The notes beneath the pieces are model-generated. The model saw nothing but the letters and a program-made list of their open reading frames with translations. It was not told the origin of the DNA and did not search any database. 64,000 bases of DNA from an uncultured Anaerolineaceae bacterium (GTDB lineage: Bacteria; Chloroflexota; Anaerolineae; Anaerolineales; UBA4823). The DNA lies in NCBI GenBank assembly GCA_964391195.1, contig CAYMLG010000009.1:4167-68166 (forward strand). The letters run 5' to 3'. A program made the position numbers and the translations under genes. Within the stretch, counting starts at the first letter, position 1, and each line of letters begins with the position of its first letter. This document shows, one piece after another, positions 11,515-32,700 of the stretch.

Positions 11515-14500
11515 CCGATGCTCCGGTTTATGCTCGAGATTTTCTCCGCCAGCAGGGCGGCGATCTCTTCTTCGCTCATGTCATCCAGGTCTGGGGTCTC
11601 GGCAGCCCCGTCCTGCGGCGCTTGCCCGTCAGGGGGCTGCGCCTCCTGGTCCTCCACCTCGGCGGCGGGGAACAGAGTCTGCTCCAGGTAAGCCGCCAGG
11701 CCGCGGATGGTCGGGTATTCGAACAGCAGGGTGGAAGGCAGGGTCTGGCCGGCCAGTCCGCTCAATTTGTTGCGCAGCTCGACCGCCATCAGCGAATCGA
11801 GCCCCATCTCGCTGAGCGGGAGGTCCAGGTCGATGGTTTTCTGTGGATCGATGCCGAGCACCCGGGCGGCCTGCCGGCGTACCTCTGCGGCGATGTGGTT
11901 GAAGCGGCGCTTGGGGAGCAGGGCAGAGACCTCGTCCAGGAAGTTCGGCGCCTCGGCCGGTTTATCCGGCCCCGCGACCGCCTGCGCCTGTGGAGCGCCC
12001 GGCAGCCGGGCAAAGTCAAGGGTGAAAGCCGGGGCGTGACCGGAGGGGAGTGCACGGAAATAGGCCTCCCAATCGACATCGATCACGGTGTACTGCACGT
12101 GGAGCGGCAGCCGGGATCCCGGCCGGCTGTGGAAGGCCCAGGCGAACGCCTGCAGCCCCTCCTGGGGCGTCATCTTGCGGATGGCGGCCGCTTTCAGCCC
12201 GGCAGCCGCCCCGATCTCCGCCCAGGCTCCCCAGTTGATGCTCACCGTGGGGCATCCGACTGCCGTCTGGTAGTAGGCAAAGGCATCCAGGAAGGCGTTG
12301 GCGGCGGCATGGTTCCCCTGCCCGGCCGAGCCCAGCACCGAAGCCCCCGAGGAGAACAGGATGCAGAAATCGAGCTCTTGATCGCGGGTCAGGTGGTGCA
12401 GGTTCCAGGTGCCGGTCACTTTCGGCGCCATCACTTTGCGGAAACGTTCCCAATTCTGGTGCGCCAGGACCCCATCATCGAGCACACCGGCGGCGTGGAT
12501 GATGCCGCGCAGCGGCGGCAGGGAGGCGCTGGCCTGCGCCAGGCAGGCGGCCAGGCTCTCGGACTGAGTGACATCGCTGCGACAGACCAGCACCCGGGCG
12601 CCTCGGGCTTCCAACCCTTCGATGGTCTTGCGGGCAGCCTCCGAAGGCTCCCTGCGGCCGATCAGGATCAGGTTCCTGGCGCCGCGCTCGACCATCCAGC
12701 CGGCAACGGCCAGGCCTAACCCGCCCAGGCCGCCGGTGATCAGGTAGCTGGCCTCCGCCCGGATGGGGAACTCGGCCGGGAGGGTCGTCTCGCTGCCATC
12801 CCGCACGCGGGAGAAGCGTGGCACTTTGCGCCGCTTCCCGCGGATGGCGATCTGGTCTTCGCCTGGCTGCGGATGGAGGATTTCCCTCAGCAGCGCGGGC
12901 GCCTGTTCCGGAGCGGCGGCCCCTGGGTCGAGGTCCAGGCGGGTGCAGCGCAGCTCGGGGTGTTCGAGGGCGATCACCCGGCACAAGCCCCATACCGGCG
13001 CCTGTGAGAAGGCCAGGGGCGGTTCGCCGCCTGCATCAAGGGAGAAGCCGGCCGGTTGGGCGCCCTGAGTGGCCACGAAAAGCCGGGGCGGTTCTGTCCC
13101 ACCCAGGCCGGCCAGGGCCTGGGCCAGGTGCAGCAGGCTGCCGGCGGCCAGCGCCTGGCCAGCTTCCAGGCTGGCAGGCGACAGGTCTTCAGCGGCGGGT
13201 AAGTCGAGCGACCACAGGTGCACCACGCCCCGCAATGGGGCGCCGGCGAGGGGAGCCGTGGCCAGCAGCTTGCGGAAGTCGTCCGGCTCGTCCGGGCGTA
13301 TCGTGCAGCGTTGAGGTAACAGGCACTGGTAGGCGTCTCCCGCCTCGACTGTGATCACCTGTTCGCCCAGTTCGGCCAGCCTCTGGGAAAGAGCCTCCCC
13401 GGCGCCCTGCCGGTCGGCGAGCACAATCCACGCGCCGCTCGATTCGAAGGGGGAGTGATCAGCCTGGTGGGGGGCGCAGGTCATGATCAACGCCTGTTGG
13501 GCGAAGAGGGCGAAGGCATCCTGGCCCTCTTCGCCGGGGACGATGGCAGTGCTCTCAAACCCCATCTCGGCCAGCAGTGTCTGCCAGCCCCGCTTGGTCA
13601 GCAGGGCGTAGTCCGGCCGCAGGTCCCGGTCCTGGTATGCCCACCATCCCTCGGTGAGCCCGACCGTCAGATCGCCGAAACGCTGCTTCTCGGTGGCTTC
13701 GATCAAGAGCAGCAGGCCGCCGGGCGCCAGGAGCTTGCGGACATTCCTCAGGGTCTGGCGCAGGTCGGGGGTGGCGTGCAGCACGTTGGCGGCGATCACG
13801 ATCTGGTAGCTCCCTTCGACGATGCCCTGGGCTTGCAGGTCGCGGGTGATATCCAGGGTGCGGCAGTCGACGAACGGGTAGGCGGCGAACTTCTCCTGAG
13901 CGCGGGCGGTGAACAGGGGGGAGATATCGGTGAAGGTGTACTCGGTGCGGTCAGCCGGCAGGGCGGGGAGAACGTGAGTCGTGGTCCCCCCGGTTCCGGC
14001 GCCGATCTCGATCACCCGCAAGGGTTCGTCCGGTGGTAGCTGCGCCACCGCGGCCTGGACCGCCTGGCGCATCAGGTTGTTGTAGAAGCGGGCCGAGGGC
14101 GAATCCTGGTACAGTTTTTCTGTCTCAGCGGTCGAACCGTTGGGGAATAGGAGCTGCAGCGCAGGGATACTGCCGTTCAGGGCCTGGGCCAGCGATGAAG
14201 CGACGCGCCCGGTCAGGTTGAGCTCGGCATCCAAGGTGGGGTAGCGGGCGAGCAGATCGGCCCACATGGCCTGCGGGTCGATCACCTCCGGCGCCCGGCG
14301 CACGCGCCAGGCCTCCCCGGCCCGCTCGAGGATGCCATCTTCACCCAGAATTTGCAGCATGCGCTGGAGCAGGCTGCGATGGGCGGGGATGATCCCCAGG
14401 CGCTGTTCCAGTTCGGCGAGGGTGTAATCCGCCCCCGCTTCGAAATCCATACCGAGCTGGCGCAGGGCCTGGACGATAAACGCCCGGCACAGGATGTCTA

Positions 14501-29759: not shown

Positions 29760-32700
29760 TTACCGTTCCGCAGTGCTTTCAACTCGGCCAATAACTGCGC
29801 CTCGGCCTCTTCGTCCGATAAGCTTTCGATGTCGGCCAGTTCGACCTGCTCCACGCTGTCCTCTGTCCCAGAGGCGGCCTCTGTCCCCGCGCCCACGGCC
29901 GGGGCACCATCCGCGGCCACCCGCTCGAGCAGGTAGGCGGATAGGGCTTCCACCGTGGTGTAATCGAACACCAGGGTAGCGGGCAGCGGCTGGTCGAAGC
30001 CCAGGCCCGCGCCTAATAAATTCCGCAGTTCGACGGCCATCAGCGAGTCCAGGCCCATCTCTTGCAGGGGCTGTTTGCTGTTGACCGGGAAAGACGGCTC
30101 CAGGTCCAGCACTTTCCTGACCTGTTCCAGCACGTGGGCGAGCATCAGGCCGGGGCGCTTGCTCGCCGGGGCCTGGAGCAGGCGTTGGCGCAGGTCGGGA
30201 AGGGTGGGAGCGGATTCTCCCGACCGGCCATCCTGGTCCTCCTGGGCAGTGGCTGCGCCGGTCATCTCGGTGTAGAAGGGGGGGATAGCCCGGCCAGCGA
30301 ACTGCCTGGCGAAAGTGGGCCAATCCATCCTCACCGCCGCCACCGCCGCAGGCGTGGATGGCTGCGCCGTGTTGGTGCTGCGGATGAGCTCCTCTAGCAC
30401 GGCGATCCCTTGCTCGGGGGTCATCGACAGGATGCCCCTGGCCATCAGGCGTTCGCCCAGATCTCTGCTGGCCGCCGCGCCCACTTCCGACCAGGGTCCC
30501 CAGCCGATGCTCAGAGCCGGCAGACCCTGCGCCCGGCGGTAGCTCGCCAGGGCGTCGAGATAGGTGTTGGCCGCCACGTGGTTGCTCTGCCCTGCCGCGC
30601 CCAGGACGGACACAGCCGAGGAGAAGAGCACGAAAAAGTCCAGGGGCAGATCCTGGGTGAGGCGATGAAGGTTCCATCCCCCGTCGATCTTCGGCCCAAA
30701 CACCCGGGCGAAGCGCTCCCAGCGCTGCTGCAAGATGACCCCATCATCCAGCACACCGGCGGCATGGATCACCCCGCGCAGCGGCGGCATGGTTTCGGAG
30801 ATCTCGCCCAACAACCGCTCCACCTGCCCGAGGTCCGAGACGTCGGCCTGGACCAGCCTGACCTCAGCGCCGTCCACGGCCAACTCTTCACAGAACGCCT
30901 GCGCGGCGGCATCGGGCTCGCTGCGGCCTACCAGGACTAGGTGCTTTGCCCCGCGCTCGGCCAGCCAGGCCGCAGCGCTGCGCCCCAGCCCGCCCAGACC
31001 GCCGGTGACCAGGTAAGTGGCGTCGGGCTGCACCGGCGCCCCTGGGTGGGCGTGGCGGTGGACCAGTACGATTTTGCCGATATGCCTGGCCTGGGACATG
31101 AAGCGGAAAGCGGCTTCCGCCCCTTCGATCGGGAACTCCGTGAGGGGCAAGGGGCTCAGCTCACCCTGTTCGAAGGCGGGCAGCAGCTCCTGGAACAGGG
31201 AGGGGATCAGGCCGGGGTCTTGCCGGGCCTCGGCCAGTAAATCGATCACGTGATAGCTTGCCTGGGGTTTGACCGTTGCGAACTGCTCCGGGCTCCAGAT
31301 GCCGCGCTTGCCGATCTCCAGGAAACAACCCTGATCGGCCAGCACCTGGACGCTCTTCGTGATAAATTCGTCCGCCAGGGAATTCAGCACCAGATCCACG
31401 CCCCTACCGCCGGTGATCTCCAGGATTTGATCGGCGAAATCCAGGGAGCGCGAGTCCATCACGTGCTGGACGCCCATCTCCAGCAGCAGGCGGCGCTTTT
31501 CGGGGGAGCCGGCTGTGGCGAAAATCTCCGCCCCACAGCGGCGGGCGAGCTGGATCGCCGCCATCCCCACGCCCCCTGCGCCGGCGTGGATCAGCACTTT
31601 ATCGCCGGCCTTCATTTTCCCCAAGCGTAACAGGGCGTATTGTGTAGTGAGGAAAGCCGATGGCAGGGTGGCGGCTTCGGCGGGGGTCAGCCGTCCCGGC
31701 TTACGGGCCACGAACCCGGCCGGAGCGATCACGTGCGAGGCAAAGCCCCCGGGAGCCACGGCGACCACCTCGTCGCCCGGCTTCAAATCGCCGGCCCCCG
31801 GGCCCACGGCGGCGATCACCCCGGCGCACTCGCTGCCCAGGGTGGTTTCACTCCCCGGGTACATGCCCAGGGCCATGAGCACATCGCGGAAACCCAGACC
31901 GGTGGCCTGGACCGCGATCTCCACTTCACCCGGTCCGGGCGAGCGCCGCGGAGCGGGGACGAGTTCAAGGCTGTCCAGCCGTCCCGGCTGGCGGGTGACC
32001 AGATCGTAGGCCCCGGCGGGCGGGACGTCCTCCCCGGCGGCTAACCGGCTGCGCTGCAGCCGGGGGGTGTGCACCTGCCCGGAACGGACGGCCATCTGCG
32101 GCTCGTGCGGATAGGCCTGCAGCGCAGCCATCAGGGATGCCGCCGCTTCGGCTTTGGACGAATCGAGATCGAGACAGGAGCAGCCCAACTCAGGGTGTTC
32201 CTGGGCGATCACCTTGCCCAGGCCCCATAGGGCTGCCGACAAGGGCACGATTGTTTCACCTTCCGCGGCCGGGTCAACCCGGAACCCCCTGCGCGTCACC
32301 AGGCGCAGGCCGCCGGGCAGGCTGAGGCTGCGCCGGGCCAGGGCCTGGCTCAGATGCAGAGCGCCCGCACAGGCGGCCTCCAATTGCGGGCTGCCTTGCT
32401 CCGGCGCCTCTTCCGGCGTGGGGAGGTCCAGGGCCCAAAGATAGAGCACACCCTGCAGACCCGCCTGGCCGGCTTCCGCGATCAGGCGGTCGAAATCCTC
32501 GGGCCGGGCCGGGTCCAGCGTGTACCGGTCCTGGCCGGCTGCCTGGTACCGATCGCCCGCCCGCACAGTGACGGCTGTGCTCCCCATCCCGGCCAGTCGT
32601 CCGGCAAGCGCTTCCCCAACGCCCTGCTCGTCGGCGAATACCAGCCACTTCCCCCGGGGCAGCGGGTTCTCCGCCCGCGGAGAGGTCGCGGGCTGCCAGG

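What the first reader, a model, noticed from the sequence alone, without database searches (positions are those of the whole stretch)
12309..30580. Three of five KR domains have His in place of the catalytic Tyr
Seen: the KR active-site motif reads SNYAAAN in module 6 and AHYGAAN in module 1. In the other three KRs the Tyr is His: GQSNHVAAN in module 2 (His codon 30578-30580), GQGNHAAAN in module 4 (18248-18250) and GQGNHAAAN in module 5 (12309-12311). All three keep the NADPH-binding TGGLGGLG, and two keep the LDD stereo-motif. Established: this position aligns with the catalytic Tyr of DEBS-type KRs (GGYAPGN) and of SDR enzymes generally. Inference: one possibility is that these KRs are reductase-dead, which would strand the DH and ER domains of modules 2 and 4. 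The other is that His acts as the proton donor, a variant I do not recall being characterised. Three independent occurrences argue against sequencing error.
Basis: partly seen in the sequence, partly recalled or inferred. Interest (0 to 1): 0.6.

Follow-up and report, generated by a model that had tools for sequence, protein, structure and literature searches.

The report
Histidine-type ketoreductases in methylating PKS modules
Three ketoreductase domains of this six-module polyketide synthase carry histidine where the catalytic tyrosine is expected, but this is the usual and apparently working form of the domain in modules that also hold a C-methyltransferase, so the finding is ordinary.

Summary
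His codons sit at 12309-12311, 18248-18250 and 30578-30580, and they align with the catalytic Tyr of solved KR structures.

It is neither an error nor a sign of dead domains. In a search seeded on the cMT domain alone, 95 of 106 KRs in cMT-containing modules had His, and 9 of 9 KRs in cMT-less modules of the same proteins had Tyr. Pooled over two searches the counts were 118 His/15 Tyr with cMT against 7 His/208 Tyr without.

His-type KRs keep the Lys, the Ser, the Asn and the NADPH motif. Their commonest context is DH-cMT-ER-KR. They occur in yersiniabactin HMWP1 and puwainaphycin PuwB, whose products need the reduction.

Modules 4 and 5 fit the rule. Module 2 has His but no cMT and is the exception; its ortholog in a congeneric genome does have a cMT.

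The most likely reading is a set of active B-type KRs in which His is the proton donor. Ten literature searches found no description of this variant. This scan has reached the same reading four times on other DNA.

The parts
36383..41497 (-). Module 1: KS-AT-KR-ACP. The KR has the normal Tyr (GLAHYGAAN, TAC 37178-37180) and the A-type Trp eight residues before it.
29756..36382 (-). Module 2: KS-AT-DH-ER-KR-ACP. The AT is malonyl-type (HAFH) and there is no cMT. The KR is His-type. This is the exception to the cMT rule.
30485..31021 (-). Module 2 KR catalytic subdomain: GQSNHVAAN with His codon CAC at 30578-30580, the LDD motif, and Pro in WGPW (the Tyr-type state of the second covarying site).
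25242..29759 (-). Module 3: KS-AT-cMT-ACP, with the cMT at about 25860-26465 and no KR.
17468..25231 (-). Module 4: KS-AT-DH-cMT-ER-KR-ACP, with the cMT at about 20417-21019. It is fully reducing and C-methylating.
18155..18691 (-). Module 4 KR catalytic subdomain: GQGNHAAAN with His codon CAC at 18248-18250 and LAD in place of LDD.
11511..17471 (-). Module 5: KS-AT-cMT-KR-ACP, with the cMT at about 13536-14144.
12216..12752 (-). Module 5 KR catalytic subdomain: GQGNHAAAN with His codon CAT at 12309-12311 and the LDD motif.
4900..11514 (-). Module 6: KS-AT-DH-ER-KR-ACP. The KR has the normal Tyr ([12 protein letters not shown] 5662-5664). There is no thioesterase domain.
3823..4896 (-). GDSL-type lipase/acylhydrolase gene directly after module 6. 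It may be the release enzyme (inference only).

Best explanation
The three His residues are genuine and old. They mark a widespread subclass of B-type (LDD) polyketide ketoreductases that reads HxxxN where the textbook KR reads YxxxN. This subclass is the normal form of the KR in modules that carry an in-line C-methyltransferase.

These KRs are most likely active NADPH-dependent beta-ketoreductases. The imidazole probably takes the place of the tyrosine hydroxyl as proton donor to the beta-carbonyl, while the Lys, Ser, Asn and Rossmann motif work as usual (inferred, not shown).

On this reading:
- Module 4 makes an alpha-methyl, fully saturated unit.
- Module 5 makes an alpha-methyl beta-hydroxy unit.
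- Module 2 makes a saturated unit.
- No DH or ER is stranded.

Modules 4 and 5 follow the cMT rule. Module 2 is a His-KR without a cMT. Its ortholog in a congeneric genome has a cMT, so the His there is either a leftover from a cMT-bearing ancestor or simply tolerated.

Why His goes with the cMT is not known. My preferred guess (about 0.3) is that it tunes the KR so that reduction does not pre-empt methylation, which needs the beta-keto form.
For: Shown here:

(1) Position. His aligns with the catalytic Tyr of solved KRs and falls in the KR profile column where 225 other KRs have Tyr.

(2) Association with the cMT.
- The cMT-seeded search is blind to the KR motif. It covered 119 proteins, 14 of them without a scorable cMT+KR module. 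It gave 95 His/11 Tyr in cMT modules and 0 His/9 Tyr in other modules.
- The KR-seeded search of 119 proteins gave 25 His/5 Tyr with cMT and 7 His/199 Tyr (plus 1 Phe, 1 gap) without.
- A third set of 87 new proteins gave 23 His/4 Tyr with cMT and 4 His/159 Tyr (plus 1 Phe, 1 Gly, 2 Arg) without.
- Among B-type KRs alone the counts were 115 His/5 Tyr with cMT and 7 His/140 Tyr without. All 48 A-type KRs with a residue there have Tyr.

(3) Same-protein controls. In 27 proteins that hold both kinds of module, 21 of 27 pairs were His in the cMT module and Tyr in the other; the rest were 2 Tyr/Tyr, 2 Tyr/His, 1 His/His and 1 His/gap. In the third set 23 of 28 pairs were His/Tyr and none was reversed.

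(4) Not one lineage.
- On a 74-KR tree with the motif columns removed, His/Tyr needs 12 changes, and well-supported branches alone force at least 3. Two sister KRs of one protein (P0092, support 99) differ as His with cMT and Tyr without.
- On the 243-KR tree there were 7 independent contrasts on supported branches. The cMT went the same way in about 5, the opposite way in 0, and did not differ in about 2 (median p 0.06).

(5) Signs of function.
- Lys 35/35, Ser 35/35, Asn 34/35.
- Tyr or His in 353 of 355 aligned KRs, with 1 Phe and 1 gap. Among about 190 KRs of the third set there were also 1 Phe, 1 Gly and 2 Arg, all in modules whose start was not seen.
Of these, 117 lay in KRs, 59 had a cMT, 11 had none, 47 had too little upstream DNA to tell and 5 were not in a KR. 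The commonest context was DH-cMT-ER-KR.

(6) Characterised enzymes.
- HMWP1 of yersiniabactin synthetase (KS-AT-cMT-KR-ACP) has His in that column. Its KR is drawn as the NAD(P)H-dependent reductase of the pathway (PMC9547227, figure legend passage). Yersiniabactin was made in vitro from four purified proteins (PMC5995452, review passage).
- PuwB (KS-AT-DH-cMT-ER-KR) has NHAAAN and is assigned an alpha-methylated chain extension (PMC4219810, passages).

(7) Orthologs. Syntenic clusters in G001, G007 and G027 keep His in every M4. In the M5 group the one ortholog without a cMT (G007) has Tyr, and it is nested among cMT/His orthologs.
Against: - No enzyme assay or structure of a His-type KR was seen, so the role of His as the acid is an inference.
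- The rule is not absolute. 15 of 133 KRs in cMT modules have Tyr, and their cMTs look intact: they miss 0-3 of 43 conserved columns and have the same profile scores. The cryptophycin CrpA DH-cMT-KR module also has Tyr.
- 7 of 215 KRs in cMT-less modules have His, and so do 11 of the 70 assessable KRs in the pattern scan. Module 2 is one of these. His therefore does not strictly need an alpha-methyl substrate, which weakens the gating idea.
- The searches list only the best 120 of thousands of hits. The rows are related to each other and to this window, so the raw p-values overstate the association.
- The phylogenetically corrected test is only suggestive (median p 0.06).
- In the M2 group the simplest history on the KS tree is a cMT gain in G001. 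In that case His came before the cMT there.
Confidence: 0.8

Rival explanations
1. The KRs are active reductases, but His is not the proton donor. The proton comes from the Ser/Lys/water network. His is selected because the smaller side chain reshapes the pocket for alpha-methyl or gem-dimethyl substrates, or because it removes the Tyr-dependent alpha-epimerase activity of KRs.
For: - A review passage states that the Tyr and Ser of KRs catalyse epimerisation (PMC7327777, passage).
- A second site near the lid covaries with the His. In WG[A/P]W, 92/123 His-type KRs have Ala and 104/153 Tyr-type KRs have Pro.
- His goes with the cMT across independent contrasts.
Against: - Methylmalonyl-derived alpha-methyl substrates are handled by ordinary Tyr KRs (established knowledge).
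- Module 2 and other cMT-less His-KRs sit behind malonyl-type ATs.
- No column shows a compensating change in catalytic residues.
Confidence: 0.3
2. The His-KRs are reductase-dead (C-type). Modules 2 and 4 then carry stranded DH and ER domains, and module 5 leaves a ketone.
For: - Tyr is the canonical SDR acid.
- KRs that lack Ser and Tyr are classed as inactive C1-type in the review passage seen (PMC7327777).
Against: - All other catalytic and cofactor residues are conserved in His-type KRs.
- Tyr or His fills that column in 353 of 355 aligned KRs. The third set adds 1 Phe, 1 Gly and 2 Arg among about 190 KRs.
- The dominant context is DH-cMT-ER-KR in many phyla.
- The DH and ER motifs of M2 and M4 are intact.
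- HMWP1 and PuwB need the reduction.
- Where the cMT was lost in the M5 ortholog of G007, the residue is Tyr rather than a random residue.
Confidence: 0.05
3. Only module 2 is compromised. Having lost its cMT partner, its His-KR is a poorly adapted leftover, and the module works badly or is decaying.
For: - M2 is the only His-KR of the cluster without a cMT.
- The G001 ortholog has a cMT, and the G027 ortholog has Tyr.
- The G001 and G007 M2 KRs have Ser in place of the motif Asn (HVAAS).
Against: - M2 scores 236 bits on Pfam KR, the same as the Tyr-type M6.
- Its KS, DH, ER and ACP motifs are intact.
- His is kept in both WIN and G007 after their split.
- Asn is replaced by Cys or Ser in the working yersiniabactin-type KRs as well.
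- Further His-KRs in cMT-less KS-AT-DH(-ER) modules exist elsewhere.
Confidence: 0.1
4. Sequencing or assembly error at the three codons.
For: The window comes from a draft genome of 199 contigs.
Against: - Three separate codons in domains only 55-61% identical to each other.
- The same His in orthologs of three other genomes and in hundreds of homologs.
- Contigs of four independent runs cover the sites, with no difference listed there among the rows shown.
Confidence: 0.01

Closest known systems
KR domain of HMWP1 (Irp1), the KS-AT-cMT-KR-ACP module of yersiniabactin synthetase
   Same: His lies in the catalytic Tyr column, the Lys and Ser are kept, the KR is B-type-like (LAD), and a cMT sits in the same module. 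The pathway needs this KR and has been rebuilt from purified proteins (passages of PMC9547227 and PMC5995452).
   Different: The motif is more diverged (GQSAHALAC, with the Asn replaced by Cys). The module is gem-dimethylating and part of a PKS-NRPS hybrid. The KR part is too far from the window's to pass 1e-20 in tblastn.
PuwB, the KS-AT-DH-cMT-ER-KR-ACP module of puwainaphycin synthetase (PMC4219810)
   Same: It has the same architecture as module 4 and the same NHAAAN motif. It is assigned an alpha-methylated, reduced extension unit.
   Different: It is cyanobacterial and fed by a FAAL. The assignment is bioinformatic plus product structure; the KR was not assayed.
Canonical B-type KRs of modular PKS and mycocerosic acid synthase (PDB 9d2y, 5bp4, 7s6b, 2fr0)
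   Same: Best sequence matches in the PDB (E 1e-57 to 1e-40). They share the Rossmann motif, the LDD region, the Lys, the Ser and the YxxxN frame.
   Different: The four best matches, whose alignments were printed, have Tyr where M2, M4 and M5 have His. I saw no solved structure with His there, but only 4 of the 48 alignments were printed.
CrpA DH-cMT-KR module of cryptophycin synthetase (Nostoc sp. ATCC 53789 plasmid)
   Same: A cMT-containing cis-AT module with a B-type KR.
   Different: It keeps Tyr (GQGNYSAAN), so it is a documented exception to the cMT-His rule. That this is the crp cluster rests on the strain name and on a gene order I recalled; the record does not name it.
C-type (reductase-incompetent) KRs such as PikKR3 and EryKR3
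   Same: They depart from the canonical catalytic set.
   Different: C-type KRs lack the active-site Asn and/or cofactor binding (PMC7327777 passage). The window's His-KRs keep both.

Membership tests
Type I PKS ketoreductase domain (Pfam PF08659, 'complex' SDR) | Profile match above the curated cut-off | tested here: met
   M2 236.0, M4 226.3 and M5 231.8 bits against a cut-off of 22.6. M6 (Tyr-type) scores 236.1.
Type I PKS ketoreductase domain (Pfam PF08659, 'complex' SDR) | Gly-rich NADPH-binding motif TGGxGxxG | tested here: met
   TGGLGGLG in M2, M4 and M5.
Type I PKS ketoreductase domain (Pfam PF08659, 'complex' SDR) | Catalytic Lys and Ser | tested here: met
   The APK/GPK Lys and the FSS Ser are present in all three. 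They are 35/35 and 35/35 in His-type homologs.
Type I PKS ketoreductase domain (Pfam PF08659, 'complex' SDR) | Catalytic Tyr of the YxxxN motif | tested here: not met
   His in M2, M4 and M5. The Asn of the motif is kept. No other column has a Tyr that is enriched in His-type KRs.
Type I PKS ketoreductase domain (Pfam PF08659, 'complex' SDR) | NADPH-dependent reduction of beta-ketoacyl-ACP | not testable with these tools
   Inferred from conservation, module contexts and the HMWP1/PuwB products.
B-type KR (D-hydroxy forming) | LDD motif (third Asp strictly kept) and no Trp eight residues before the catalytic residue | tested here: met
   M5 LDD, M2 LDD, M4 LAD; Leu or Val at position -8. 122 of the 125 His-type homologs classed are B-type and 3 are unclassed.
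C-type (reductase-incompetent) KR | Loss of the active-site Asn and/or of NADPH binding (as given in PMC7327777) | tested here: not met
   The Asn and the Gly-rich motif are intact in all three.
His-type KR of cMT-containing modules (HMWP1/PuwB-like; a grouping defined by this analysis, for which I found no published name) | His in the Tyr column within an otherwise intact B-type KR | tested here: met
   M2, M4 and M5.
His-type KR of cMT-containing modules (HMWP1/PuwB-like; a grouping defined by this analysis, for which I found no published name) | A C-methyltransferase domain in the same module | tested here: inconclusive
   Met for M4 and M5. Not met for M2, where there is a clean absence of about 380 aa relative to M4 and no remnant. 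The G001 ortholog of M2 has one.

The most novel reading that the evidence does not exclude
His-for-Tyr defines a mechanistically distinct SDR subclass (HxxxN) that evolved repeatedly as a built-in checkpoint. On this reading a His-KR is slow or selective enough to let the in-line C-methyltransferase act on the beta-keto intermediate before reduction removes the acidic alpha-proton. Gain or loss of a cMT would then be followed by a one-nucleotide TAY/CAY switch. The four syntenic clusters (this window, G001, G007, G027) would be a natural swap series: M5 has cMT/His in three genomes and no cMT/Tyr in G007; M2 has cMT/His in G001, no cMT/His in WIN and G007, and no cMT/Tyr in G027. This series would let the idea be tested directly.
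Probability: 0.3. Interest if true: 0.6.

Novelty: new member of a known kind. Interest (0 to 1): 0.35.

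Why it matters
The practical consequence concerns annotation. A rule of the form 'no catalytic Tyr means an inactive KR' would call inactive about nine in ten KRs of cMT-containing modules in my samples. Product predictions for these clusters would then be wrong, with ketones predicted in place of hydroxyl, alkene or saturated carbons. 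I state this rule from general knowledge and did not check how any particular tool applies it. For this cluster it would wrongly strand two DH-ER pairs.

Biochemically, an SDR-type reductase that works with His in place of Tyr has, as far as ten full-text searches could show, not been described or dissected, even though yersiniabactin synthetase is a working example. The link to the cMT and the easy one-base switch make it a tractable question for PKS engineering, for example when a cMT is added to or removed from a module.

As a finding in this window it is ordinary. The same variant is common, and this scan has already noted it on other DNA.

Tried and rejected
- Literature. The seven aimed at a published description used terms such as 'replaced by histidine', 'catalytic tyrosine', NHAAAN, HAAAN, C-methyltransferase and HMWP1, and they found none. 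Subscription papers are not covered. Three papers I wanted were not held: PMC5224524, PMC4948183 and the AEM 2003 yersiniabactin paper. Absence from print is therefore not shown.
- Single origin of His-type KRs. Rejected, because supported branches force at least 3 switches. I did not run an AU test of monophyly.
- Dead cMT as the explanation for the Tyr exceptions. Rejected, because their cMTs are intact.
- A cMT remnant in module 2. None found. M2 and M6 align to M4 with the same clean gap, and M2 is no closer to M4 than M6 is.
- A compensating Tyr elsewhere in His-type KRs. None found.
- More named, characterised examples (McyG, CurJ, JamJ, EpoE). The JGI labels 'McyG' on P0165 and P0181 are automatic, and I did not count them.
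- Read evidence. Only contigs, not raw reads, could be laid, and 190 difference rows were not shown. It adds little.
- Not run: structure prediction, fold search and complex prediction. The tools return no coordinates, so the geometry around the His could not have been measured.

Full report
**What is there**

The window holds six single-module cis-AT polyketide synthase genes on the minus strand:
- M1, 36383-41497: KS-AT-KR-ACP.
- M2, 29756-36382: KS-AT-DH-ER-KR-ACP.
- M3, 25242-29759: KS-AT-cMT-ACP.
- M4, 17468-25231: KS-AT-DH-cMT-ER-KR-ACP.
- M5, 11511-17471: KS-AT-cMT-KR-ACP.
- M6, 4900-11514: KS-AT-DH-ER-KR-ACP.

A GDSL hydrolase gene follows M6, and polysaccharide genes and an AMP-binding enzyme lie upstream.

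**The observation**

phmmer against PDB sequences aligns the M5 His, without gaps, to the catalytic Tyr of mycocerosic acid synthase and of Lsd14. A profile alignment puts the His of all three KRs in the column where M6, M1, CrpA and 225 other KRs have Tyr.

The five KRs are 42-61% identical to each other, so these are three old and separate occurrences.

The stretch recurs in metagenome runs of 11 studies. Contigs of four runs cover the codons, and no difference is listed there among the rows shown; 190 rows were not shown. Orthologs in three other genomes carry the same His. Sequencing error is excluded.

**The rule behind it**

- KR-seeded search. I searched the large protein collection with the M5 KR region and annotated all hits with profiles built from the window's own domains. 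Among 119 hit proteins, KRs in modules with a cMT had 25 His and 5 Tyr. KRs in modules without one had 7 His and 199 Tyr, plus 1 Phe and 1 gap.
- cMT-seeded search. The first query contains the His motif and may favour it, so I repeated the search with the cMT region alone, which cannot see the KR. It gave 95 His and 11 Tyr in cMT modules, and 9 Tyr and no His in other modules of the same proteins. 14 of the 119 proteins had no scorable cMT+KR module.
- Third set. 87 new proteins gave 23 His/4 Tyr with cMT and 4 His/159 Tyr without.
- By KR type. The His variant is confined to B-type (LDD) KRs or unclassed ones: 115 His/5 Tyr with cMT and 7 His/140 Tyr without. All 48 A-type KRs with a residue there have Tyr.
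- Pattern scan. 117 lay in KR domains, 59 had a cMT, 11 had none, 47 had too little upstream DNA to tell and 5 were not in a KR. The commonest context was DH-cMT-ER-KR. The hosts span Acidobacteriota, Chloroflexota, Cyanobacteria, Proteobacteria, Actinomycetes, Verrucomicrobia and others.

**Is the link only shared descent?**

Partly, but not wholly.
- In proteins that hold both kinds of module, 21 of 27 pairs are His in the cMT module and Tyr in the other; two pairs are reversed. In the third set 23 of 28 pairs are His/Tyr and none is reversed.
- On trees built without the motif columns, His-type KRs are scattered. A 74-KR tree needs 12 changes, and supported branches alone force at least 3. 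Two sister KRs of one protein differ as His with cMT and Tyr without.
- Independent contrasts on supported branches give about 5 concordant, 0 discordant and 2 uninformative (median p 0.06). This is suggestive, not conclusive.
- The switch is a single transition (TAY/CAY), so the tight association implies selection.

**Are His-KRs active?**

There is no assay here, but the indirect evidence is consistent.
- Lys 35/35, Ser 35/35, Asn 34/35 and the Gly-rich motif are kept.
- Tyr or His fills that column in 353 of 355 aligned KRs. Among about 190 further KRs, 1 Phe, 1 Gly and 2 Arg were seen, all in modules whose start was not in view.
- No other Tyr is enriched in His-type KRs.
- The DH and ER motifs of M2 and M4 are intact.
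- The commonest context is a fully reducing module, which would make no sense with a dead KR.

Two characterised systems carry the variant:
- HMWP1 of yersiniabactin synthetase (GQSAHALAC) has the Lys and Ser kept. Its KR is drawn as the NAD(P)H-dependent reductase of the pathway (PMC9547227, figure legend passage). The siderophore has been made from four purified proteins (PMC5995452, review passage). That the product bears the hydroxyl next to the gem-dimethyl carbon is recalled, not checked.
- PuwB (NHAAAN) is assigned the alpha-methylated chain extension that ends as a 4-methyl acyl unit (PMC4219810, passages).

**The cluster family**

Syntenic six-module clusters occur in G001 (same genus), G007 (same family) and G027 (same order). 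A KS tree groups the modules by position, with the same order of genomes each time: (G027,(G001,(WIN,G007))), with starred support for M2, M4, M5 and M6.
- M4 is cMT/His in all four genomes.
- M1 is Tyr in all four. M6 is Tyr in the window and G001; in G007 and G027 the contig ends before the M6 KR.
- M5 is cMT/His in G027, G001 and the window. In G007 it has no cMT and Tyr, and its KR is sister to the window's M5 KR (95/94).
- M2 has no cMT and Tyr in G027, cMT and His in G001, and no cMT and His in the window and G007.

One orthologous position therefore shows loss of the cMT together with His-to-Tyr. Either M2 lost a cMT and kept His, or G001 gained a cMT in a module that already had His; the tree alone favours the second. 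M2 shows no remnant of a cMT. At a second covarying site (WGPW) it has the Tyr-type state.

**Limits and exceptions**

- 15 of 133 cMT-module KRs have Tyr, and their cMTs are intact.
- CrpA of the cryptophycin cluster is such a case. The cluster identity rests on the strain name and on a gene order I recalled.
- His without a cMT occurs in about 3% of cMT-less KRs in my sets, and in 11 of the 70 assessable KRs in the pattern scan.
- His is therefore neither required by a cMT nor dependent on an alpha-methyl substrate. The checkpoint idea stays a hypothesis.
- All counts come from the best 120 rows of searches that found thousands of hits, and the rows are related to one another.

**Novelty**

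Of the ten full-text searches, the seven aimed at a description of this variant found none (see Tried and rejected). Subscription literature could not be searched.

After I had reached this reading, one search showed that four earlier follow-ups of this scan on other genomes reached the same one (His-type KR beside a cMT; HMWP1, PuwB and SupA as closest known). Those are unchecked AI notes, not independent evidence. I tested the HMWP1, PuwB and cMT claims here, but not SupA.

**Verdict**

'Dead KR' is rejected as unlikely, and a working His variant is likely. As a feature of this window it is an ordinary member of a common, under-described kind.

Noticed in passing
window 29756-36382 (M2), compared with G001:C186:82913-90667, G007:C1:1051784-1058103 and G027:C54:21229-27723: The orthologous M2 modules differ in both cMT and His/Tyr: G001 has cMT and His, the window and G007 have no cMT and His, and G027 has no cMT and Tyr. 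The G001 and G007 KRs also have Ser in place of the motif Asn (HVAAS).
   Followed up: partly
G007:C1:1070299-1075161 (M5 ortholog): This M5 ortholog is KS-AT-KR-ACP with no cMT and a Tyr KR (GQGNYAAAN). Its KR is sister to the window's cMT/His M5 KR. It is a natural cMT loss paired with a His-to-Tyr change.
   Followed up: yes
G007:C1:1046277-1062539: M1, M2 and M3 of the G007 cluster are split over two or three reading frames each (KS-AT | KR-ACP; KS | AT-DH-ER-KR | ACP; KS-AT | cMT-ACP). This could be indel errors of the assembly or real decay; I did not resolve it.
   Followed up: no
window 3823-4896 (-) and 4900-11514 (-): M6 ends in an ACP with no thioesterase. The next gene encodes a GDSL-type lipase/acylhydrolase, a possible off-loading enzyme.
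   Followed up: no
window 36383-41497 (M1) and 25242-29759 (M3): The M1 AT has VAGH where malonyl ATs have HAFH, and the M3 AT matched none of the usual four-residue specificity motifs in my regular expression. M1 starts directly with a KS and has no loading ACP. An AMP-binding enzyme gene lies at 45274-46800.
   Followed up: no
window 1-3768 (-), and the contig beyond the window's left edge (G000:C9:1-3169): A very large Big_9/cadherin-repeat protein (8 repeats, open at the window edge) lies downstream of the PKS. Beyond it, at the contig end, there is another KS-AT-DH fragment on the same strand, so the assembly line may continue.
   Followed up: no
window 47489-50215 (+) and 47882-50311 (-): Two long ORFs overlap on opposite strands. 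The + strand ORF has PQQ/beta-propeller hits and the - strand ORF (809 aa) has no Pfam hit. Probably only one of them is a gene.
   Followed up: no
KR profile column 176, the WG[A/P]W site 28 residues after the His (M5 WGAW, M4 WGVW, M2 WGPW, M6 WGPW): A second site covaries with His/Tyr among B-type KRs. Ala is found in 92/123 His-type KRs and Pro in 104/153 Tyr-type KRs.
   Followed up: partly
window 12000-31000: Near-identical DNA is held by metagenome runs labelled activated sludge, anaerobic digester, soil, sediment and compost, from 11 studies (coded ids).
   Followed up: partly
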